DNA of 48,023 nt, taken from positions 1 to 48,023 of the forward strand of contig VMFW01000004.1 of assembly GCA_007376265.1 (NCBI GenBank), read 5' to 3'. The notes under the pieces were generated by a model. It worked only from the letters and a program-made list of their open reading frames with translations, searched no databases and was not told the origin of the DNA. The position numbers and the translations under genes are program-made. This document shows, one piece after another, positions 113 through 31,678 of the stretch (the stretch's first letter is position 1; each line of letters starts with the position of its first letter). Origin of the DNA: Parcubacteria group bacterium Gr01-1014_20 (GTDB lineage Bacteria > Patescibacteriota > Minisyncoccia > UBA6257 > 2-01-FULL-56-20).

Positions 113-286
113 TCAGGAGAACCAAATAAGAGCGGATATGCCTCCAGTTAAGGAGGTGATCGTATAGTGAACTAGTTTCTTCGACACTGGGATAGTCGAA
201 AGATCGATTCCCATTGCTCGGTCCACAGTTGCTCCCACAACGCTCCCAATGAGGATGACCAAGAGAGCTAACATGCCAGTGAACAT
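113..286 (-). CDS. small membrane protein, 57 aa (below ORF-track cutoff)
   Basis: GAAAGGAG SD before the ATG at complement 284-286. Translation MFTGMLALLVILIGSVVGATVDRAMGIDLSTIPVSKKLVHYTITSLTGGISALIWFS has two hydrophobic segments. Confidence 0.5.
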   Translation of the reverse strand: MFTGMLALLVILIGSVVGATVDRAMGIDLSTIPVSKKLVHYTITSLTGGISALIWFS

Positions 287-1481: not shown

Positions 1482-1490
1482 TGCTAAAAT
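1482..1490 (+). promoter_or_regulatory. extended -10 element (TGcTAAAAT) placed 6 nt before the ATG at 1497; leaderless-type arrangement
   Basis: gTGcTAAAATaggcggATG, with no convincing SD between the -10 and the start codon. Confidence 0.45.
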
Positions 1491-19328: not shown

Positions 19329-21911
19329 ATGCAAGACAAAATAATTATTAAGGGCGCCAGAGAACACAATTTAAAAAATATTTCGCTCGAACTCCCCCGA
19401 GACAAAATGATTGTTTTCACCGGACTTTCTGGTTCCGGCAAGTCGAGCCTGGCTTTTGATACTATTTTTGCCGAAGGCCAAAGACGCTATATTGAATCTC
19501 TTTCGGCTTATGCCAGACAGTTTTTGGGCAAGCTCGACAAACCCGACGTCGATGAAATTGAAGGCCTTTCCCCAGCCATCTCGATCGACCAAAAGAGCCA
19601 CTCGGCAAATCCCAGGTCAACCGTCGCCACCATCACCGAAATTTATGACTATCTGCGCGTTCTCTATGCCCGTGTTGGGGTTCCACACTGTCCCAGGTGC
19701 GGTAAAGAGATTCGCAAAATGACCAAAGAGCAAATTGTGGACGCGGTGATCGAATTTAACAAAACTAGTAAATCCAAAAAGAATACAGAAATGATTGTCC
19801 TTGCGACTACCGTGAGAGGACGAAAGGGCGAGTATTACCAGATGCTCTACGACTTTCTAAACGCTGGTTTCTCGGAAGTTAAAGTTGATGAACAGTTCCA
19901 CTCCCTAAGGAATCGAATAGAAATGAGTCGTTATAAAGCTCACACCATCCAACTGGTTATTGACAGAATTCCGGCCGCAACCGATTGGAAAAATAAAGAC
20001 AACCGACTTCGCCTTGCCGAAGCCATTGAGCACGCCCTAAGGTATGGCGCTGAAACTGTGGATATCTCAGTAGGGGATAAGTCGCTTGCGCTTTCATCAA
20101 AGTTCGCCTGTCCCGATGACAATTTCTCATTCCCCGAAATAGAGCCGAGACTCTTCTCGTTTAACAGTCCCTACGGCGCCTGTGAAGAGTGTCACGGCTT
20201 AGGCACCGAAAGTGTCTGGTCTGACAAACCCTGCTCCAAGTGCTTAGGCAAACGCCTCAAAGAAGAAGCCTTAAGCGTTTTAATCAAAGGTAAAAATATT
20301 GTGAATATGACAGCGATGTCGATTATCGATGCTCACGAATTTGCCTCGAAAATCCAAAAAACTGAAACCAAGAAATTTATGGAGGTGGCCGAACTACCAC
20401 TTAAAGAAATCAAAAATCGCCTAAAGTTTATGCTCGATGTCGGTCTTGATTATTTAACTCTTGATCGCAAAGCCGGTACGCTTTCTGGCGGTGAAGCTCA
20501 ACGAATTCGCTTGGCCTCCCAGATTGGGTCACGACTAGTTGGCACTTTGTATATTCTTGATGAACCTACTATTGGACTTCATCAGAGGGATAACGACAAA
20601 CTGATCCTCACTCTCCACGAGCTGAAAGACTTAGGTAATACCATTATTGTGGTTGAGCACGACGAAGACACCATTCGAGAGTCCGACTACTTAGTCGATA
20701 TTGGCCCAGGCGCCGGCATTCACGGCGGTGAAATTATTGCTCAAGGGCCGATTTCAGAACTCTTACCCTTTTCCACCGAAAGTCGATCCTCCTCCGGAGG
20801 AAAAAGTAAATCTTCGGGGGCAAAAGATAAATTTCCAGACTCCCTAACCCTCCAATATCTTCGAGGCAAAAAATTCATTGAAGTTCCGGAAGAACGCCGC
20901 AAGGTCTCAAAAGATAAGCCCCATCTTAAAATTCGTGGAGCTTATGCTAATAACCTTCAAAATCTAGACATTGATATTCCACTTAGCCGTTTCGTTTGCG
21001 TTACTGGCGTCTCCGGTTCTGGTAAAAGCTCTCTCGTCTACGACGTGATCTATAAAGCTCTTTCGAGTCGCTACGGAGGCACGCATTACCGCGAATTTGG
21101 CTGTAAATCTGTCGCCGGCACAGAATATCTAACTCGACTGATTAACATTGATCAGTCACCAATCGGCCGTACCCCTCGTTCTAATCCCGCTACTTACGTA
21201 GGCGCTTGGACTTTTATTCGCGATCTTTTTGCGTCGACCGAAGACGCCCGTGTTCGCGGCTATAAAATTGGGCGCTTTAGCTTCAACCGTCCGGGTGGTC
21301 GCTGTGAAAACTGTGAGGGTCACGGCACGATCGCCATCGAAATGCATTTCTTGCCTACAGTGTACGTTAAGTGTGACGTATGTAAGGGAAAAAGATTCGA
21401 CCGAGAAACCCTTGAGGTTGAGTATAAGAGCAAAAACATTCACGACATCCTAGAGATGACTATCGAAGAGGCCAATGAGTTTTTCGAAGACATTCCCTGG
21501 CTCCACGATCGCTTAAAGATTTTAGACGAAGTTGGTTTGGGGTACTTAACCCTCGGCCAATCGGCAACCACTCTTTCAGGAGGTGAAGCTCAACGCGTCA
21601 AGCTTTCCGCCGAGTTGGGCAAGCGTGACACCATGAAAACCTTGTATTTACTTGACGAACCTACGACTGGCCTTCACTTCGCGGACGTTCACAAACTCCT
21701 AGAAGTCCTCCAAAGATTAGTCAGTAAAGGCAATACTGTTGTTGTGATTGAACACAATCTGGACGTCATCAAAACCGCTGATTGGGTCATTGATCTAGGT
21801 CCCGAAGGGGGAGTCAAAGGTGGCAAGGTTGTCGCAGAAGGCACTCCGGAGGAGATTGCTAGAAAGAAGGGGAGCTTCACGGGCGAATACCTCCGCAAGG
21901 TGCTCGCTTAA
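19329..21911 (+). CDS. uvrA: excinuclease ABC subunit A, lacking the insertion domain
   Basis: 860 aa. Two ABC modules are present ([30 protein letters not shown] twice). The zinc module reads CEECHGLG-9 [11 protein letters not shown]. Confidence 0.97.
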
Positions 21912-21987
21912 TAAAATCGGCCTCGTACTAAACTTCGACCTTGATTCACTGACGAGCAATTAAAGCCGTCTAAGTTTTAATAAAAGG

Positions 21988-22016
21988 TTTTTAATTAAGT
22001 TACTTTTTGCTAGAAT
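21988..22016 (+). promoter_or_regulatory. extended -10 promoter for the GHP-repeat peptide gene
   Basis: TGcTAGAAT (22008-22016) with a weak -35, TTTTTA, 17 nt upstream. Confidence 0.5.
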
Positions 22017-22065
22017 AGAATCAGCTCTTCACCCTCTAGCCCTCACCTAAGGAGGTGACAACAGA

Positions 22066-22248
22066 ATGCATTGGAAAATCCTAATGCTGACTCTCGCAGC
22101 ACTGGGCTATGTCCTCTTGGGTCACCCCAACGGTGAACTCAAAGGACATCCAAACGACCGCTACTCGGTAACAGGTCATCCCGTCGGCGATGGCCATCCC
22201 AATGGAACCTTCACCTCGGCCGGCCATCCAACAGGCGATCGGCGGTAA
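22066..22248 (+). CDS. small exported or membrane-anchored peptide with five GHP repeats (60 aa)
   Basis: An 11-nt SD, TAAGGAGGTGA, lies 7 nt before the ATG. After a hydrophobic N-terminus come GHPNGELK GHPNDRYSVT GHPVGD GHPNGTFTSA GHPTGDRR. The repeats use different synonymous codons. Its own terminator is present. Confidence 0.65.
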   Translation: MHWKILMLTLAALGYVLLGHPNGELKGHPNDRYSVTGHPVGDGHPNGTFTSAGHPTGDRR

Positions 22249-22275
22249 CTTGAATTTTCGCCAAAAACGTCCACG

Positions 22276-22307
22276 AGCCCCAGGGTTGTGATACTTTGGG
22301 GCTTTTG
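22276..22307 (+). terminator. intrinsic terminator
   Basis: agcccca pairs with tggggct, followed by TTTT. Confidence 0.75.
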
Positions 22308-22536: not shown

Positions 22537-23187
22537 ATGAAGCGGTGGAGTTCGATTGCTGTATTTTTTTCACTCATCCTCTTAATCAGCCTGTCGATTC
22601 CCGGATGCGGTGACAAAAAAGGAGCCAATCCCGTTGTTCAGGATTGTGGCGAATGGTTCAGTTGGTTTGGCAACGAAGGTGGGCTCTACCTCGGGGTTTA
22701 TGTGGGAGAAATCTGCCCACTCCCTTGGAGTTGCGTATGGGGAGATACTCTTAGTGTTGACACTCTGGTCGTTTGCGAAGATCCCTACGCTCTAGAACTT
22801 GGCATCGAAGTGGATAGCGTCGATGGCAGTAAGCTTGAGATCAATAAAGTGGAGTGTATTGATCCAGACAGCGGCTACTTCGAGAGGACCTACACAGGAG
22901 TTTTTACTTTCAATCGTGATTGCGTAGCCGACTTCGCGGTCAAATTCACGAGTAGAGGCACCTCCAAAAATCCCACTCGGGAAAGTTGGTCCGTGATTGA
23001 GGAGTACCGCCTCAACTTTAGGCAAAATGTCCACTGCAACATTTCCAGCGGAGTTAATGAATATCTTACCGAGTTCACTCGGTTAGACGATGCGGAATGC
23101 GAGTATAATCCAAAAATGACCGCGGTCGGGAAAACCTTCCGGCGAATCCTCTTTGAGAAGGTCGTCGCCCTAGCTCGAAAACAATAA
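22537..23187 (+). CDS. Cys-rich lipoprotein (216 aa)
   Basis: AAAGGAG SD, then ATG at 22537. Signal peptide with a lipobox-like LSIPGC. At least eight further Cys residues are spread through the mature part. Confidence 0.75.
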   Translation: MKRWSSIAVFFSLILLISLSIPGCGDKKGANPVVQDCGEWFSWFGNEGGLYLGVYVGEICPLPWSCVWGDTLSVDTLVVCEDPYALELGIEVDSVDGSKLEINKVECIDPDSGYFERTYTGVFTFNRDCVADFAVKFTSRGTSKNPTRESWSVIEEYRLNFRQNVHCNISSGVNEYLTEFTRLDDAECEYNPKMTAVGKTFRRILFEKVVALARKQ

Positions 23188-23316: not shown

Positions 23317-23523
23317 ATGACCAAGAAAATAATTTTAGCCGCTTCCATCTTGGCAGCTGTGGTGATGCTTCTGGGTACATTCTTTGTGCTCTCCTCGCAA
23401 GCCGAGGCCGCGACAAGGACGGATGGAACTACAGGCTGTGTTGACCGTGGTTGGAAGTGCGATATTGGTGTGGACGGCGATGTCTCCTGTGGCCCAATTC
23501 TGGCCTGCTCTTACGAAAACTAG
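23317..23523 (+). CDS. secreted Cys-rich peptide precursor (68 aa; about 37-aa mature part with 4 Cys)
   Basis: MTKKIILAASILAAVVMLLGTFFVLSSQAEA signal peptide, then ATRTDGTTGCVDRGWKCDIGVDGDVSCGPILACSYEN. An alternative TTG start lies at 23299. A strong terminator follows. Confidence 0.6.
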   Translation: MTKKIILAASILAAVVMLLGTFFVLSSQAEAATRTDGTTGCVDRGWKCDIGVDGDVSCGPILACSYEN

Positions 23524-23683: not shown

Positions 23684-25351
23684 ATGTCTAAGATGCTAAG
23701 GCTTGGAGTTGTAATCGCCTTAGCGACGATTACAGCGTTTCTTACCGGCAATGCCGAAAATCTACGAACCAGCATTATGTCGGAAGAAAAGGAACCTTTA
23801 TTTCGAATTCCGAACGATGCGCAAACTGGAACCGACTCAACGCGGTTTCTTGAACTCTCGGCCGTTATCTATACCCTAGACTCGAACTACTGGGACTATA
23901 TCCGTGGAACGAGCGCTATGGAGCGATTTGTAAGTCGCATTGCCGATCACCAACAGAAGCACGCCGCTGAGTGGCTTTTAGCGTTAAGAGGTATTGAGTG
24001 GGCCAAAGATAGCACTCATTGCCTTGGCAACCCTTGGCAATTTGAAGTCGACGCTCGCTGGGCATACTTTATCCGATTTGGCCCACCCTCGGCTTACTGG
24101 TCACCAATGTACGAGGTTACAGTTCCAGGTGGTCGAATCGATACCACTCAGACATTCTTTAACTGGTGGGACACGAGAGACACTGGACTTGCCGCTCAAG
24201 TGTTCAAAGCCGAATGGTATCCACCCGAATCATCCTCGGTGTTCCCAAGGGTCGAAGCCATCGTCGGCGACACGATCAAGTCAAAGTTCGGAAAGGCTCT
24301 CTATCCCGAGTTAGACATCGTTTCCTTTCCAAACGAGGACAGCACCTTTGATGTCGGAATCTCCTCGAGCATCACAGGGAATAAACTCACAAAGGAAACG
24401 CTTCTCGATCGGCGGAAGCTTGAAGTTGAGCTACAGGTTTTTAATGCTGACTCGCTGGTTTTTGCAAGTCATCAGACTCAAAAACTCGGGCTTGCTGGAC
24501 TCATCCTCTCGGTCACCAAAAACGACGAAGATCTGGCCTTCACTTATCACTTTTCGGTTCCGAACCTTCCAGAGGGAAAGTATAGGGCCAAACTAACGGT
24601 TGAAGGAGACCGAAATAACGCTGGTAAAATCACCGAGAAATTCATTCTGCCTTCCATTCTCACGACAAAAGGTATGAGCGACATCCTTCTCGTTGACGCC
24701 TTTCCCGTCGTCGGTGAGGATATTTCGTCAGGGATCAAACGCCTTGATCAAAACCTTTACTGGAGGGGATCCAATGCTTTCAATACGGGCGACACTCTTT
24801 CGCCATACATTGAAATTATGATCCCAAAAGTAAGGATCAAGGGCCCCCCCAGAGACTCAAGTTACTGGTGGTCTTACCTTGAAGACAGCTCCTCGGTAGA
24901 GTATTTCCCGGGACCCGCCCAGGATCCCAATGCGTGGTCCTACACCATCTCGGTTTTCCTGAAGCCCATCCGCAAAAATCGAGAACCGATTTACTCGGCT
25001 GAAAATCGTGAGGGGTTTGTTTCCGGTGATAGTCTCGGTAAACCTGTCCTAAAATGGGGCGGCATTGATCTTAGAGAAAAGCACAAACAGCTTCAGCGTG
25101 AAATGGGTAGGATGGGAGCTTCTCTTCAAACCAACGACCTGGAGCTGCTTTTCGCAAGAGCGAGCCAACTCCCGGGACAGTTCGGCTCTTTTGAGTCTTC
25201 CTTTGAAGTCAAAAGAGTAGCGCCCGGTGACTACTGGATGATCATCGCGGTCGAAGCCACAGACCTGTATGAAAATGAGTGGTCCGGAAACTCCATGAAG
25301 CGGGTTAGGATCAACGAGATCAAATTCCCGACTTTCGGAAGTCGCTTTTAG
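23684..25351 (+). CDS. secreted protein with GWxTD-like N-terminal domain (555 aa)
   Basis: AAGGAG SD 7 nt before the ATG at 23684. A signal peptide is present. EVDARWAYFIRFGPPS resembles the TDRGRxYIxYGPP core of GWxTD repeats. The family call is tentative. Confidence 0.75.
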   Translation: MSKMLRLGVVIALATITAFLTGNAENLRTSIMSEEKEPLFRIPNDAQTGTDSTRFLELSAVIYTLDSNYWDYIRGTSAMERFVSRIADHQQKHAAEWLLALRGIEWAKDSTHCLGNPWQFEVDARWAYFIRFGPPSAYWSPMYEVTVPGGRIDTTQTFFNWWDTRDTGLAAQVFKAEWYPPESSSVFPRVEAIVGDTIKSKFGKALYPELDIVSFPNEDSTFDVGISSSITGNKLTKETLLDRRKLEVELQVFNADSLVFASHQTQKLGLAGLILSVTKNDEDLAFTYHFSVPNLPEGKYRAKLTVEGDRNNAGKITEKFILPSILTTKGMSDILLVDAFPVVGEDISSGIKRLDQNLYWRGSNAFNTGDTLSPYIEIMIPKVRIKGPPRDSSYWWSYLEDSSSVEYFPGPAQDPNAWSYTISVFLKPIRKNREPIYSAENREGFVSGDSLGKPVLKWGGIDLREKHKQLQREMGRMGASLQTNDLELLFARASQLPGQFGSFESSFEVKRVAPGDYWMIIAVEATDLYENEWSGNSMKRVRINEIKFPTFGSRF

Positions 25352-25491: not shown

Positions 25492-25680
25492 GTGCTTATT
25501 CTCACTCGAAAGCCCGGTGAATCGATAATCATCGATGGTGTCACGAAGGTTGTCGTTCTCGGCTTTCAAGGTAGTCAGGTCAAGCTCGGCATAGATTCTC
25601 CTCGGGACATTGAAGTTCACCGCGAAGAGGTTTATCTTAAGATTCAGAAACAAAATAAAGAACCTCATGCCCAGCACTAA
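25492..25680 (+). CDS. csrA: carbon storage regulator CsrA (RNA-binding translational regulator)
   Basis: GTG start after a GGAGGG SD. MLILTRKPGESIIIDG...VVLGFQGSQVKLGIDSPRDIEVHREEVYLKIQ matches the CsrA fold signature. Confidence 0.9.
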   Translation: MLILTRKPGESIIIDGVTKVVVLGFQGSQVKLGIDSPRDIEVHREEVYLKIQKQNKEPHAQH

Positions 25681-26955: not shown

Positions 26956-27205
26956 AAATTCCGCGCCGATCGGCAAGAATTTTTTCTCGCAGTGCATAGC
27001 TTTGGGGAGTTATGCTTGCCACTGGCTCAGTAGGGGCTTGTCCGCTCGCTTTTTTCACCTGAAACCAGGGTAGTTGGATAATTCTCCCGCTGAAAAAATC
27101 ACGCCAATTCCCATTTTCGTCAATTCGATACAGCGACGTACAAACCTCCTTGTTTCTAGGTTAAACTTCTGCGATAATAGTGCCACAATTTAGTGAAATG
27201 TGCAA

Positions 27206-28462
27206 ATGAAACCCAGCTATCAAAACCTACCTTCCACACCTGGCGTTTATATTATGAAGGGCGCTAAGGGAGAAATTTTATACATCGGCAAGGCTGTCAA
27301 TCTAAAACGAAGGGTTTCAAGCTATTTTCTCCGAGCGCACGACTATCGACTTGAAAAGCTCGTGAGTTTGATTAAGGAAATTGATCACCTGAAAACTGAC
27401 AGCGGCCTCGAAGCCCTCATTCTAGAATCCGAATTGATAAAAAAGCATCAGCCACCTTTTAATGTTCTCGAAAAAGACGACAAGAGCTTTCTTTACGTCG
27501 CCATTACAAAAGAGAAATTTCCCCGCGTACTCCTAGTTCGTGGTAAAGACAGGGCACAAGGTGAGATTCATTCAAACCCAAAGTTTAAAACCCCTAAGCT
27601 TTACTACGGCCCGTTCACTTCCGCCGTTTCTCTCCGCGAAGCCTTAAAAATCATTCGGCGAATTTTCCCCTACAGCGTACACGAACCAGGTAAAATTTAC
27701 CCGAGGCCATGTTTCGACTATTCGATTGGCCAGTGCCCGGGGGTTTGCGCAAATTTAATCACTAAAAAAGACTACGCCAAAACCATCCGAAACATTCGTC
27801 TTTTTTTTACCGGCAAAAAACTTCAAATTCTTAAATCCCTTGAAAAGGAAATGAAGCAGGCGAGTAAAGCTTTAGAATTCGAAAAGGCGGGAAAAATTCG
27901 CCACCAGATGTTTGCCCTCAAGCACATCCAAGACGTTGCCTTCATTGCTGAGGATTCTCACTTAAAACCCATAACCCATAACCCAGGACTCAACTTTCGC
28001 ATTGAAGGCTACGACATCTCAAACACCTCCGGCACCTCCGCTACCGGCTCAATGGTTGTCTTTTCCGCCAAGGGAGGATATGTCTCCGGTGGAGAAAGCT
28101 TTAAACCCGATAAAAATCAGTATCGAAAATTTAGAATTCGTTCGATAAAAAGCCCAGACGATACAGGTATGTTACGAGAAGTTCTTTCCCGGCGTTTGGA
28201 GCATCGAGACTGGACTTTTCCTAATTTAATTTTAATAGATGGTGGTAGGGGACAGATCAATGCCGCTAAATCAGTCCTAGCGGAAGCCAGGATCAAGATT
28301 CCGGTCGTCGGTATTGTCAAGGGCCCGGAACGTAAACGCAACGACATCATCGGCATCCTCCCGAAAGGTGTAGAAAAAAAGACGTTAATCCAGGTTCGCG
28401 ACGAAGCCCATCGATTTGCGATTAGTTACCACAAGAAACTTCGAGGCGTCATTACTCGGTAA
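27206..28462 (+). CDS. uvrC: excinuclease ABC subunit C, minimal form without C-terminal (HhH)2 domain
   Basis: GIY-YIG motifs are present (GVYIMKGAKGEILYIGKA, LKRRVSSY), followed by a UVR domain (ALEFEKAGKIRHQMFALKHI) and an Endo V-like domain (IEGYDISNTSG...RDEAHRFAISYHKK). The protein ends right after this. An alternative GTG start lies at 27200. Confidence 0.93.
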   Translation: MKPSYQNLPSTPGVYIMKGAKGEILYIGKAVNLKRRVSSYFLRAHDYRLEKLVSLIKEIDHLKTDSGLEALILESELIKKHQPPFNVLEKDDKSFLYVAITKEKFPRVLLVRGKDRAQGEIHSNPKFKTPKLYYGPFTSAVSLREALKIIRRIFPYSVHEPGKIYPRPCFDYSIGQCPGVCANLITKKDYAKTIRNIRLFFTGKKLQILKSLEKEMKQASKALEFEKAGKIRHQMFALKHIQDVAFIAEDSHLKPITHNPGLNFRIEGYDISNTSGTSATGSMVVFSAKGGYVSGGESFKPDKNQYRKFRIRSIKSPDDTGMLREVLSRRLEHRDWTFPNLILIDGGRGQINAAKSVLAEARIKIPVVGIVKGPERKRNDIIGILPKGVEKKTLIQVRDEAHRFAISYHKKLRGVITR

Positions 28463-28490
28463 TTTTTGAAAAACATGATATAATACCGAG

Positions 28491-30419: not shown

Positions 30420-31595
30420 TTACACATCGACAAAGGTTGGCAGTTCGTGCTTTATTTCGCAAAAAGCGAAAGCGGCTGTCAGGCTTCCTCCCATTGCTCC
30501 CAAGGCAAGCTTTTTAGGAGGGCTCGTCACGGGTTGAAGCTTAAATCCATTTTTAGCTAAGGCTAAGGGAACGGAAGCCGAGGTTGTATTGGCAAATTCT
30601 CCCCCAGCATCCAACACTTCTCCCGTGAATCCCTTCGTTCGCCACACCTCAACAATTGGCCTGACTAATTGAGCCAGGTTCGCTTCATGAAAACTCACAA
30701 GATCCAGGTCGGCATAACCCCAGCCAGTTTGTTCTAAAACATCGTCCATCATTTGCCCACCGACTGTTGAGAGAACCAAATCCTTAACTAGTGGCCCGTT
30801 CATTCCCAGCTTATCGAGTTGCTCGATAATATCGTCACCGGAGGAAATCGGATTTTTGGAGCCACCCTTGGGGGTTAGTATCGCTTCCCAGTGTTGACCG
30901 TCCATGTAGGAGAAAAATCGCTTGCTCCCAAACCAATCCTGCTCATCGGGAACGGCCACGCACAGAGTTGCTGTTCCAGCATCACCCAAAACGGTCGCAA
31001 AAGCTCTATCCTTCCAGTTGATTGTAGTGCTCATTGCGTCCGCTCCAACGAGGAGAACGCAACGACACAAACCAGACCGGATAAGCGCGTACACAAAGGA
31101 GAGTGACTCGACCCAAGTACAGCAGGCGAGAGAACTATCCAGCCCAAAAACACAATTAGCTCTTCCGTTTCTTTGGGTAGGTATTTTGAGGCGATATTGG
31201 AGAAGATTCGCGTCTGGCGGACTGTTTTTATATGACGGGGTGACAGTTCCAAAAACAATCCCGTCAATTTGCGCAACATCCAAGTTCAGGCCCGCAATCA
31301 GGTTTTTAGAAGCCCTCTCGGCTAGATCAATCGTCCCTTCGCCCGGGCTGGCAAAACGTCGGCTTTTAAAGCCGATAAATCTTTGAATCCACCGGTCGCT
31401 AGTCTTGAATTGGGCTTTCTCGTCATCCGTAAGACCCCCACCCGTAAGCCTCATTCTCCGTTCTTCAGCCTCTGCCATTGCCGTCTGTAGCATTCTCGCT
31501 ACGTCATCATTTGAAAAAACGTTTTTTGGCGCATAAGCCGCGATTCCAGCTACTCTCATACCCTGCATTTGTCCTCCGGCGCTTATGGTTTCCAA
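30420..31595 (-). CDS. 3-oxoacyl-ACP synthase III (FabH/KAS III)-like thiolase-fold condensing enzyme
   Basis: Cys-His-Asn triad contexts: SSLACCTWVESL, FHEANLAQL, FANTTSASVPLAL. An N-terminal insertion of about 30 aa precedes SDRWIQRFIGFKSRR. The start is uncertain (TTG at 31595 or ATG at 31568/31559). Confidence 0.85.
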   Translation of the reverse strand: METISAGGQMQGMRVAGIAAYAPKNVFSNDDVARMLQTAMAEAEERRMRLTGGGLTDDEKAQFKTSDRWIQRFIGFKSRRFASPGEGTIDLAERASKNLIAGLNLDVAQIDGIVFGTVTPSYKNSPPDANLLQYRLKIPTQRNGRANCVFGLDSSLACCTWVESLSFVYALIRSGLCRCVLLVGADAMSTTINWKDRAFATVLGDAGTATLCVAVPDEQDWFGSKRFFSYMDGQHWEAILTPKGGSKNPISSGDDIIEQLDKLGMNGPLVKDLVLSTVGGQMMDDVLEQTGWGYADLDLVSFHEANLAQLVRPIVEVWRTKGFTGEVLDAGGEFANTTSASVPLALAKNGFKLQPVTSPPKKLALGAMGGSLTAAFAFCEIKHELPTFVDV

Positions 31596-31678
31596 GTCTC
31601 CCCGTGTAGTAGAGCTAAATGAAGTTTATTACGCTTTAAGAATGTGTCAAACAAAACTTTCTGATATAATTTAGAGCA

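What the first reader, a model, noticed from the sequence alone, without database searches (positions are those of the whole stretch)
21988..22307. GHP-repeat mini-protein with an 11-nt perfect SD folded into a hairpin
The 60-aa product has a hydrophobic N-terminus followed by five Gly-His-Pro units (GHPNG, GHPND, GHPVG, GHPNG, GHPTG) at irregular spacing. The repeats use different synonymous codons (ggt cac ccc / gga cat cca / ggc cat ccc ...), which argues for selection at the peptide level. The SD TAAGGAGGTGA is complementary to an 11-nt stretch of the canonical 16S 3' end. It can also pair with an upstream TCACCT, forming a stem at 22043-22048/22053-22058 with an AAGG loop that places a GGA motif at the loop-stem junction. 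The gene is monocistronic with its own extended -10 promoter and terminator. Possible roles are a His-rich metal-binding surface peptide, a precursor for modification, or a CsrA-controlled message.
Basis: partly seen in the sequence, partly recalled or inferred. Interest (0 to 1): 0.6.

Follow-up and report, generated by a model that had tools for sequence, protein, structure and literature searches.

The report
Orphan His-Pro repeat membrane mini-protein
A real but tiny and nearly family-less gene in an ultra-small groundwater bacterium encodes a membrane-targeted peptide with a floppy tail of Gly-His-Pro units, probably a surface metal binder, and its textbook ribosome-binding site is odd because this organism's ribosomal RNA lacks the matching sequence.

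Summary
The 60-aa ORF (22066-22248, +) with five GHP units is real. Two congeners carry it at the same place after uvrA. Synonymous sites are saturated (pS 0.76-0.96) while pN is 0.18-0.27, and repeat number varies (4-6). An exhaustive profile search of 1.84 billion proteins found only these two orthologues plus one 71-aa look-alike in a Woesearchaeota (DPANN) MAG. There is no Pfam or NCBIfam match. AlphaFold gives an N-terminal helix (2-17) and a disordered tail. The extended -10 box and the strong terminator are conserved.

The proposed SD hairpin is not conserved and folds no better than shuffled sequence in context.

The main correction concerns the "perfect SD". It matches the canonical 16S tail, but this genome's 16S ends GGAACAAUUAAACU, with no CCUCC. 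The same holds in all 23 order relatives I read, and this loss is known for some Parcubacteria. Yet AAGGAGGTGA is invariant in the three orthologues, and AAGGAGG is enriched before starts genome-wide. I cannot explain that.

Best guess (about 0.4): an exported or membrane-anchored, disordered multi-His peptide that binds metal ions. CsrA control is possible (csrA lies 3.2 kb downstream) but unsupported. A RiPP precursor is unlikely.

The parts
19329..21911 (+). uvrA (860 aa), the conserved left flank of the variable island that holds the GHP gene
   Evidence: ORF list. Orthologous uvrA lies next to the GHP gene in G005 and G001. uvrA without a GHP gene is seen in G004, G002 and G006.
21912..22000 (+). 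Conserved intergenic block after the uvrA stop. It includes a short GACG..CGTC hairpin followed by GTTTTA. It is single-copy in the genome.
   Evidence: Alignment A2. blastn-short against the whole genome finds only itself.
22008..22016 (+). Extended -10 promoter-like box, TGCTAGAAT
   Evidence: 11 TGNTANAAT sites in the window against 5.9 expected, and 4 of 100 shuffles reach 11. The aligned positions read TGCTAAAAT in G005 and TGATATACT in G001. No -35/-10 pair was found by the consensus scan.
22043..22058 (+). Proposed hairpin, TCACCT / AAGG loop / AGGTGA
   Evidence: Present as sequence. Not conserved, and not more stable than shuffles in its context.
22048..22058 (+). SD-like motif TAAGGAGGTGA. 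Positions 22049-22058 (AAGGAGGTGA) are invariant in all three orthologues.
   Evidence: Alignment A2 shows invariant columns 141-150. The motif is complementary to the Rfam consensus 16S tail but not to the genome's own 16S.
22066..22248 (+). GHP-repeat mini-protein gene (60 aa plus stop)
   Evidence: pS 0.76-0.96 against pN 0.18-0.27 in three pairwise comparisons.
22069..22116 (+). Codons 2-17: hydrophobic helix, either a signal peptide or an N-terminal membrane anchor
   Evidence: AlphaFold2 predicts helix 2-17, with pLDDT 79 for the first block of 10 residues. Kyte-Doolittle means reach 2.05.
22120..22233 (+). Codons 19-56: the five GHPxG units, predicted disordered
   Evidence: pLDDT about 48-52. 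Unit number is 4 in G001, 5 here, 6 in G005, and 5 GHP/DHP plus 1 GHS in the archaeal look-alike.
22275..22304 (+). Intrinsic terminator (12-bp stem, then a run of U)
   Evidence: Hairpins at the same place in G005 (-23.1 kcal/mol, z -3.9) and G001 (-14.6 kcal/mol, z -2.55).
22537..23187 (+). Context: predicted lipoprotein (216 aa from the ATG), preceded by AAAGGAGA. It belongs to the same variable island.
   Evidence: An orthologue is present in G005. No Pfam family reaches its cut-off.
23317..23523 (+). Context: small Cys-rich secreted peptide, with a conserved upstream motif ACGGGAAAAAAGGTCGRTAT
23684..25351 (+). Context: about 555-aa secreted protein of no known family, preceded by a conserved AAAAGGAGC
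25492..25680 (+). csrA (62 aa), on the right side of the island
   Evidence: PF02599 at 71.4 bits against a cut-off of 27. ORF.

Best explanation
Window 22066-22248 is a genuine, independently transcribed gene. It has an extended -10 box, a leader of about 42 nt, the ORF, and an intrinsic terminator. It encodes a 60-aa peptide. An N-terminal hydrophobic helix (residues 2-17) takes the peptide into or across the membrane. The remaining roughly 40 residues are a disordered tail carrying five Gly-His-Pro-x-Gly(-Asp/Glu) units.

The gene is an accessory gene of a hypervariable island of surface and secreted proteins. The island lies between uvrA and csrA in a roughly 0.9-Mb groundwater Parcubacteria-type CPR bacterium.

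Inferred mechanism: the tail is exposed outside the cell. Its regularly spaced imidazoles, each followed by a proline that limits coordination to a discrete site and often by an acidic residue, bind divalent transition-metal ions (Cu, Ni or Zn). This would serve capture or buffering at the cell surface.

What is shown: the gene is real, it is under peptide-level selection, its architecture is helix plus disordered repeats, and its terminator and promoter box are conserved.

What is inferred: export or topology, and metal binding.

Separately, the AAGGAGGTGA motif is under selection, since it is invariant across saturated divergence. It cannot work through classical SD/anti-SD pairing, because the organism's 16S tail lacks CCUCC. 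What reads the motif is unknown.
For: Gene reality. Orthologues lie at the same position after uvrA in 2 of 6 other congeners (G005 E 7e-18, G001 E 3.7e-13, ORFs). In the three pairwise comparisons pS is 0.77/0.76/0.96 and pN is 0.18/0.27/0.24. GHP codons differ within and between species. 26 columns are invariant, including every G-H-P of the four shared units.

Rarity by chance: 1 of 10,515 frames has more than two GHP.

Architecture: helix 2-17, and the rest has pLDDT of about 50.

Independent transcription: terminators in all three species, and a TGNTANAAT-type box in all three.

Surface context: the neighbours are a lipoprotein, a Cys-rich signal-peptide protein and a large secreted protein.

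A look-alike with the same architecture (short N-terminus with a basic residue, about 14 hydrophobic residues, then repeated D/GHPxG) exists in a Woesearchaeota MAG. It scores profile E 2e-4 against 1.84e9 proteins and BLASTP 51% identity over 39 residues. This suggests that the helix-plus-repeat design is what is selected.

Metal binding itself rests only on general coordination chemistry of His/Pro/Gly repeats, which is recalled and not tested here.
Against: There is no direct evidence for metal binding. His content is only 5 of 60 residues, far below classical His-rich metal-storage proteins. There are no Cys or Met. No metal transporter or metal regulator is adjacent. No family, structure or literature match gives a function. 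Export is inferred from hydrophobicity alone, because no signal-peptide predictor was available. The gene is missing from 3 of 6 uvrA loci examined in the genus, so it is dispensable. The similarity to the archaeal protein is low-complexity and could be convergent.
Confidence: 0.4

Rival explanations
1. A surface-exposed disordered repeat peptide whose role has nothing to do with metals. Examples would be contact with the host cell, a pH-responsive tether (His titrates near neutral pH), or a decoy in the interaction of this episymbiont-type organism with hosts or phages.
For: It lies in a hypervariable island of secreted proteins that differs between congeners. Repeat number varies from 4 to 6. 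The gene is present or absent within one genus. A look-alike occurs in another ultra-small lineage, a DPANN archaeon. A remnant of a foreign-type uvrA 3' end beside the gene in G005 suggests that the island moves by recombination.
Against: The strict invariance of G, H and P in every shared unit points to a chemical role for the imidazole rather than to a generic spacer. No binding partner is known.
Confidence: 0.25
2. The message is controlled by CsrA. The CsrA dimer would bind the GGA in the SD-like motif, and perhaps the conserved UGGAAA at codons 3-4, and block or modulate initiation. This concerns regulation only and is compatible with any function of the peptide.
For: csrA is intact 3.2 kb downstream. 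It is present in all 3 genomes that carry the GHP gene, and in 7 of 41 relatives overall. With no anti-SD in the 16S, some other reader of the conserved AAGGAGGTGA is needed. In G005 the local fold puts AAGGAGG in a 7-nt loop. TTGGAAA at 22071-22077 is invariant.
Against: Every SD-like motif contains GGA, so the motif is not specific evidence. The hairpin that would present the GGA differs in register in each species and is not better than shuffles. FliW, the usual partner of CsrA in Bacillus-type systems, was not found. G002 and G004 have csrA but no GHP gene. G017 has csrA but few AAGGAGG (12 per 100 kb), and G026 lacks csrA yet has 38 per 200 kb. The sharp -12..-10 positioning of AGGAG looks ribosome-geometric rather than repressor-like.
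Confidence: 0.15
3. A precursor of a ribosomally made, post-translationally modified peptide, with repeated GHPxG core units.
For: It is a small ORF with repeated short units and variable unit number.
Against: The N-terminus is a hydrophobic export-type helix, not a typical leader. No modifying enzyme, protease or transporter is a shared neighbour in the three bacterial loci or the archaeal locus. No cleavage motif flanks the units.
Confidence: 0.07
4. A regulatory leader peptide (a His-codon-sensing attenuator) for the downstream lipoprotein gene, or not a protein-coding gene at all.
For: Five His codons are followed, 27 nt after the stop, by a terminator.
Against: The His codons are dispersed rather than consecutive. 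The downstream lipoprotein gene is absent in G001, while the ORF and terminator are kept. Purifying selection acts along the whole peptide. The archaeal look-alike sits next to a convergently oriented ribosomal-protein gene.
Confidence: 0.03

Closest known systems
Hypothetical protein C4573_02110 of a Candidatus Woesearchaeota MAG (P0009, 71 aa; locus L070 6001-6216)
   Same: It has the same design: a short N-terminus with a Lys, about 14 hydrophobic residues, then immediately D/GHPNG and five more GH(P/S)xGD units. It has its own upstream GAGGTGA and a T-rich end. BLASTP gives 51% identity over 39 residues.
   Different: It is in another domain of life, with archaeal ribosomal-protein neighbours. 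It carries LTLE spacers between units. The similarity is low-complexity, so homology and convergence cannot be told apart. Its function is also unknown.
His/Pro/Gly tandem repeats of prion proteins (mammalian octarepeat, avian hexarepeat). Recalled from the literature, not tested here.
   Same: Short tandem units built from His, Pro, Gly and Asn, in a disordered segment that follows a signal peptide. There each His anchors one Cu(II) and Pro acts as a break point for coordination.
   Different: There is no sequence homology. Those proteins are eukaryotic, the unit sequence differs, and they carry a folded C-terminal domain. Metal binding of the GHP peptide is untested.
Small His-rich metal-binding proteins of bacteria (Hpn-type nickel storage proteins). 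Recalled.
   Same: Small and without a stable fold, with His as the presumed ligand.
   Different: Those proteins are cytoplasmic, far richer in His and often in Cys, and have no export helix. The GHP peptide has 8% His and a strictly periodic G-H-P.
Classical strong Shine-Dalgarno sites (AAGGAGGTGA type) pairing with the 16S 3' tail
   Same: The sequence is identical to the complement of the Rfam consensus tail. The spacing is canonical: the motif ends 7 nt before the ATG.
   Different: The organism's 16S tail has AAUUAAA where ACCUCCU should be, so the defining base pairing is impossible. Loss of the anti-SD in a Parcubacteria subgroup that also lacks uL1 is described in Tsurumaki et al. 2022 (PMC9297842, passages read). 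uL1 was not found here.
CsrA-controlled leaders (for example the flagellin message of Bacillus). Recalled.
   Same: A GGA lies within the ribosome-binding region, and a csrA gene is in the genome.
   Different: No FliW was found. No conserved GGA-presenting hairpin exists. No binding was tested.

Membership tests
Classical SD/anti-SD initiation site | Base complementarity to the 3' tail of the organism's own 16S rRNA | tested here: not met
   The own 16S ends ...GCGUGGAACAAUUAAACU against the consensus GGAUcACCUCCUUu. None of the 23 relatives' tails read contains CCTCC. No other CCUCC candidate lies in or near the rRNA operon except one closed hairpin.
Classical SD/anti-SD initiation site | Purine-rich GGAGG core 5-13 nt upstream of the start codon, conserved in orthologues | tested here: met
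   GGAGG lies at 22051-22055 and the ATG at 22066. AAGGAGGTGA is invariant in 3 of 3 orthologues.
CsrA-regulated leader | csrA gene present in the genome | tested here: met
   PF02599 at 71.4 bits, window 25492-25680
CsrA-regulated leader | GGA presented in the loop of a conserved hairpin, usually with two or more sites | tested here: inconclusive
   The hairpins differ in register, with z from -0.5 to -1.9. The 52-nt leader gives z +0.43. A second conserved GGA (TTGGAAA, 22071-22077) exists but lies within codons.
CsrA-regulated leader | Direct binding of CsrA to the leader RNA | not testable with these tools
   Needs a gel shift or footprint.
Sec-type exported or N-terminally anchored small protein | Short basic N-region, a hydrophobic stretch of 10 or more residues, then a polar region | tested here: met
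   K4, then ILMLTLAALGYVLL, then GHPNG. Helix 2-17. Hydropathy. The cleavage site was not tested, as no predictor was available.
His-rich metal-binding peptides | Measured binding of metal ions by the His residues | not testable with these tools
   Only the sequence pattern is available: 5 His in 60 aa, each in G-H-P.
His-rich metal-binding peptides | Homology to a described family (Pfam, NCBIfam) | tested here: not met
   0 families at E up to 1 in Pfam and in NCBIfam. The Atlas gave no usable hit.
RiPP precursor | Co-located modifying enzyme, protease or exporter conserved across loci | tested here: not met
   The neighbours in G000, G005, G001 and the archaeal locus share no enzyme.
Intrinsic (Rho-independent) terminator | Stable GC-rich hairpin followed by a U-run, just after the stop | tested here: met
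   -21.4 kcal/mol, z -4.78. Also present in both orthologues.

The most novel reading that the evidence does not exclude
In a Parcubacteria lineage whose 16S rRNA has lost the anti-SD, a canonical SD-like motif is still kept under selection at canonical spacing. This holds upstream of this gene (AAGGAGGTGA, invariant in three species) and of roughly a hundred others. In this genome 111 of 273 AAGGAGG copies sit 3-14 nt before a start. The motif would therefore be read by something other than the 16S tail: a protein such as CsrA, or an unknown RNA. That would be a non-canonical initiation or control mechanism. The GHP peptide itself would be the founding member of a metal-binding surface-peptide family shared between CPR bacteria and DPANN archaea.
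Probability: 0.2. Interest if true: 0.75.

Novelty: new variant of a known kind. Interest (0 to 1): 0.45.

Why it matters
Small proteins of CPR bacteria are almost entirely uncharacterised. This one is clearly under selection and has a simple, testable chemistry. It also has a counterpart in DPANN archaea, the other great group of ultra-small symbionts. The second reason is that the locus is a clean, conserved example of a paradox: a perfect canonical ribosome-binding site in an organism whose ribosome lacks the sequence that reads it. If the genome-wide signal holds up, it makes directly testable the question of how translation starts in anti-SD-less bacteria, and what GGAGG motifs do there.

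Tried and rejected
1. Wider homologues.
- The search for homologous proteins with the single protein gave 1 hit, P0001.
- With alignment A3 it gave 3 hits among 357 candidates.
- The exhaustive profile search gave 10 hits at E up to 0.001. Seven of them (P0003-P0008, P0010) were read and rejected: WD40-type or other repeats that share only GH/HPNG words.
- The order-wide genome search covered 401 genomes. Only G000 was convincing. I opened 7 of the 20 weak-hit loci, plus two weak loci, and none had a frame with 2 or more GHP or 3 or more HP. The other 13 were not opened.
- tblastn against phages and against plasmids gave no match.
- The ESM Atlas gave no usable hit.

2. Literature. 'Gly-His-Pro' plus 'repeat' returned 3 unrelated papers, seen as a listing only.

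3. Expression. No RNA holder is listed. The only listed runs are DNA runs of one groundwater-metagenome study, one of which may be the source sample.

4. Hairpin as a conserved element: rejected.

5. A relocated anti-SD. I looked for CCTCC or CTCCTT in and around the rRNA operon and at all 273 CCTCCTT sites. No candidate stood out. A 13-nt match to the canonical tail at window 148-160 lies inside a minus-strand ORF (113-286) and was judged to be coding chance.

6. The conserved block after uvrA as a repeated mobile element: it is single-copy.

7. RNAalifold on the three terminators mis-registered G001, so they were folded singly instead.

8. Complex prediction and fold search were not used. 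The model is a helix plus a disordered tail, so neither would be informative.

Full report
THE OBSERVATION

The ORF at 22066-22248 (+) encodes exactly the 60-aa product described. It has a hydrophobic N-terminus and five GHP units written with different synonymous codons. Five GHP cannot be chance. The expectation is 0.0034 per 58 positions. Among 10,515 stop-to-stop frames of 40 aa or more in the genome, this is the only one with more than two.

TAAGGAGGTGA sits at 22048-22058, ending 7 nt before the ATG. TCACCT 22043-22048 can pair with AGGTGA 22053-22058. TGCTAGAAT lies at 22008-22016. A 12-bp terminator with a U-run lies at 22275-22304 (-21.4 kcal/mol, z -4.78, 0 of 200 shuffles).

THE ORGANISM

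The window is contig 9 of a 912,976-bp, 20-contig genome that is 99% complete, with GC 46%. No uL1 was found. The only public runs holding the stretch are DNA runs of a groundwater metagenome.

Small size, missing uL1 and the 16S feature described below fit the Parcubacteria subgroup of Tsurumaki et al. 2022 (PMC9297842; I read the passages returned, not the whole paper).

IS IT A GENE?

Yes. A six-frame search of 40 relatives found the protein in two of six other congeners. G005 has a 67-71-aa form with six GHP. G001 has a 51-aa form with four GHP, ended by TAG. In both it lies directly after uvrA, as it does here.

Between the three species synonymous sites are saturated (pS 0.77, 0.76, 0.96), while pN is 0.18-0.27. 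Every G, H and P of the four shared units is invariant, as is DRYSV.

The -10-like box, the AAGGAGGTGA motif, the start codon and a terminator hairpin are all present at matching positions in the three species. So the gene is a self-contained transcription unit.

WHERE IT SITS

In this window the order is:
- uvrA
- GHP gene
- lipoprotein
- Cys-rich secreted peptide
- a secreted protein of about 555 aa
- csrA (25492-25680)
- a 386-aa ORF
- then an ORF (27200-28462) whose N-terminus resembles the ORFs next to csrA/uvrA in G004 and G002, which I read as uvrC by eye; no family search was run.

Congeners differ at this locus:
- G004 has uvrA, a 43-aa ORF, csrA and the ORF I read as uvrC.
- G002 has another small Cys-rich ORF.
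- G006 lacks both the GHP gene and the lipoprotein.
- G003 gave no uvrA match.

The GHP gene is therefore an accessory gene of a hypervariable island of surface proteins. In G005 the spacer before the gene holds a 23-codon remnant of a uvrA 3' end ([23 protein letters not shown]). By my count, this remnant matches this window's uvrA end at 20 of 22 residues and G005's own at 15 of 22. That hints that the island moves between congeners by recombination.

HOW WIDE IS THE FAMILY?

Very narrow.
- Pfam and NCBIfam give nothing.
- The Atlas gives nothing usable.
- Phages and plasmids give nothing.
- 401 genomes of the order give only weak noise apart from G000 (7 of the 20 weak loci were opened).
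- An HMM of the three orthologues, run against all 1.84 billion cluster representatives, gave 10 hits at E up to 0.001. These were the two orthologues, seven unrelated repeat proteins (read), and one real look-alike, P0009 (E 2e-4).

P0009 is a 71-aa hypothetical protein of a Woesearchaeota MAG. It has the same design: MKW, then about 14 hydrophobic residues, then DHPNG and five more GH(P/S)xGD units. Archaeal ribosomal-protein genes flank it, and it has its own upstream GAGGTGA and a T-rich end. BLASTP to the window protein gives 51% identity over 39 residues.

Homology by transfer and convergence cannot be separated at this length and complexity. Either way, the combination of helix and G-H-P periodicity recurs in the two great groups of ultra-small organisms.

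STRUCTURE AND LIKELY MECHANISM

AlphaFold2 on the four-sequence alignment gives a helix for residues 2-17 (pLDDT 79 for the first block of 10 residues, 68 for the second) and no structure for the rest (pLDDT about 50).

The N-terminus has the shape of an export signal or N-in anchor: K4, then 14 hydrophobic residues. By inspection only, a signal-peptidase-type site (small residue at -1, L or A at -3) precedes the first His in all three bacterial sequences. I could not test cleavage.

The tail is a string of G-H-P-x-G units, often followed by Asp or Glu. His followed by Pro, in a Gly-rich disordered chain, is the pattern of discrete His-anchored metal sites known from prion-type repeats (recalled, not tested).

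My best explanation is therefore an extracytoplasmic multi-His metal-binding peptide, at about 0.4. A non-metal surface or host-contact role (0.25) is the main rival. A RiPP precursor (0.07) lacks any shared enzyme neighbour. An attenuator leader, or a non-gene (0.03), is contradicted.

THE 'PERFECT SD'

The genome's single 16S gene ends ...GCGUGGAACAAUUAAACU. Infernal aligns AACAAUUAAACU to the consensus AUcACCUCCUUu.

I read the tail in 23 genomes of the order, including G005 and G003 of the same genus. All have AAUUAA-type tails and none has CCUCC. The 11-nt match is thus to a textbook 16S, not to this organism's.

Loss of the anti-SD in part of the Parcubacteria is in print (PMC9297842). 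More generally it is reported in tiny genomes (PMC7782861, passages).

THE SD-LIKE MOTIF IS STILL SELECTED

What I did not see in those passages is the other half of the story.
- AAGGAGGTGA is the longest invariant run of the leader across three species whose silent sites are saturated.
- AAAGGAG is likewise kept before the orthologous lipoprotein and 555-aa genes.
- Genome-wide, AGGAG occurs before 69 of 692 long ORFs against about 20 expected. 45 of the motif starts fall at -12 to -10.
- AAGGAGG is the most abundant of the 35 permutations of its letters: 273 copies, while the others range from 88 to 214.
- 41% of AAGGAGG copies lie 3-14 nt before a start with an ORF of 60 aa or more. The other permutations give 9-34%, most of them 13-22%.
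- The site logo is AAAAAGGAGG, with no preference further 3'.
- The motif favours genes with long upstream gaps (26%) over operon-internal genes (10%).
- Many other genes have a TGNTANAAT box 7-9 nt before the ATG, which suggests leaderless messages.
- In 200 kb of G026 and 100 kb of G017, the signal is weaker or rests on few sites.

I found no alternative CCUCC partner in or near the rRNA operon. What reads the motif is unexplained.

CsrA AND THE HAIRPIN

The hairpin is real as sequence but is not a conserved element.
- Alone it gives -7.2 kcal/mol, z -1.9.
- In the 52-nt leader the best fold uses another partner, with z +0.43.
- In G005 and G001 the upstream arm differs and the local folds are ordinary.

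csrA is present and intact. It is found in 7 of 41 relatives, including all three GHP carriers. FliW was not found.

CsrA is a candidate reader of the GGA-containing motif, but nothing specific supports it. csrA presence does not track AAGGAGG abundance in the two other genomes sampled. I give it 0.15, as a regulatory layer that excludes none of the functional readings.

VERDICT

The finding is a real, conserved, nearly family-less small gene of a known general kind: an exported low-complexity His-repeat peptide. Its function is untested. The hairpin and the classical-SD reading are rejected.

The most interesting residue is the conserved canonical SD-like motif in an anti-SD-less lineage. This deserves a dedicated, phylogenetically controlled analysis. 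Supplements of the two papers were not read and may contain SD-usage data that bear on its novelty.

Noticed in passing
G000 contig C14:88184-89687 (-), = L019 1501-3004; relatives L021-L049: The 16S rRNA 3' tail reads GGAACAAUUAAACU instead of the consensus GGAUcACCUCCUUu. The same AAUUAA-type tail is present in all 23 genomes of the order whose tail I read. uL1 was not found in this genome. This matches the published anti-SD-less, uL1-less Parcubacteria subgroup.
   Followed up: yes
whole genome G000; examples in the window upstream of 6265, 10477, 22537, 23684, 25754 and 37018: Despite the missing anti-SD, an AAAAAGGAGG motif is enriched at canonical spacing. 111 of 273 AAGGAGG copies lie 3-14 nt before a start. 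AGGAG peaks at -12..-10. 26% of genes with long upstream gaps carry a GGAG or GAGG core, against 10% of operon-internal genes. What reads the motif is unknown.
   Followed up: partly
window 1482-1490, 28476-28484, 31662-31670 (and 3463, 13458, 41003, 43572): TGNTANAAT extended -10 boxes lie 7-9 nt before ATG start codons. -10-like 5-mers are the most enriched words at -20..-4 genome-wide. This suggests that many messages are leaderless.
   Followed up: partly
L002 1729-1800 (-) in G005, between uvrA and the GHP gene: A 23-codon remnant of a uvrA 3' end ([23 protein letters not shown]) sits between the true uvrA stop and the GHP gene. It is closer to this window's uvrA end than to G005's own. 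A shorter, degraded remnant is visible in G001. This suggests that the island was exchanged by recombination.
   Followed up: partly
window 23317-23523; L002 270-488 (-); L003 1163-1381; L009 2213-2413: A family of 66-74-aa Cys-rich peptides with a signal peptide occurs in four congeners. Each is preceded about 30 nt upstream by a conserved ACGGGAAAAAAGGTCGRTAT-like motif rather than by an SD-like motif.
   Followed up: no
window 25492-25680; relatives G001, G002, G004, G005, G017, G040: CsrA is patchily present (7 of 41 relatives) in an order without flagella-type FliW (not found in G000). In G004 it lies directly between uvrA and the ORF I read as uvrC. G040 has two copies 400 bp apart.
   Followed up: partly
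window 148-160 (+), inside the minus-strand ORF 113-286: A 13-nt exact match to the complement of the canonical 16S tail (TAAGGAGGTGATC), flanked by a CCTCC that could pair with it. It lies in the coding sequence of a 57-aa membrane-protein ORF on the other strand, and I judged it coincidental.
   Followed up: partly
window, all ORFs of 100 aa or more: Nearly all long ORFs of the 48-kb window are on the + strand. The plausible exceptions are 30420-31595 and a few that overlap + strand ORFs.
   Followed up: no
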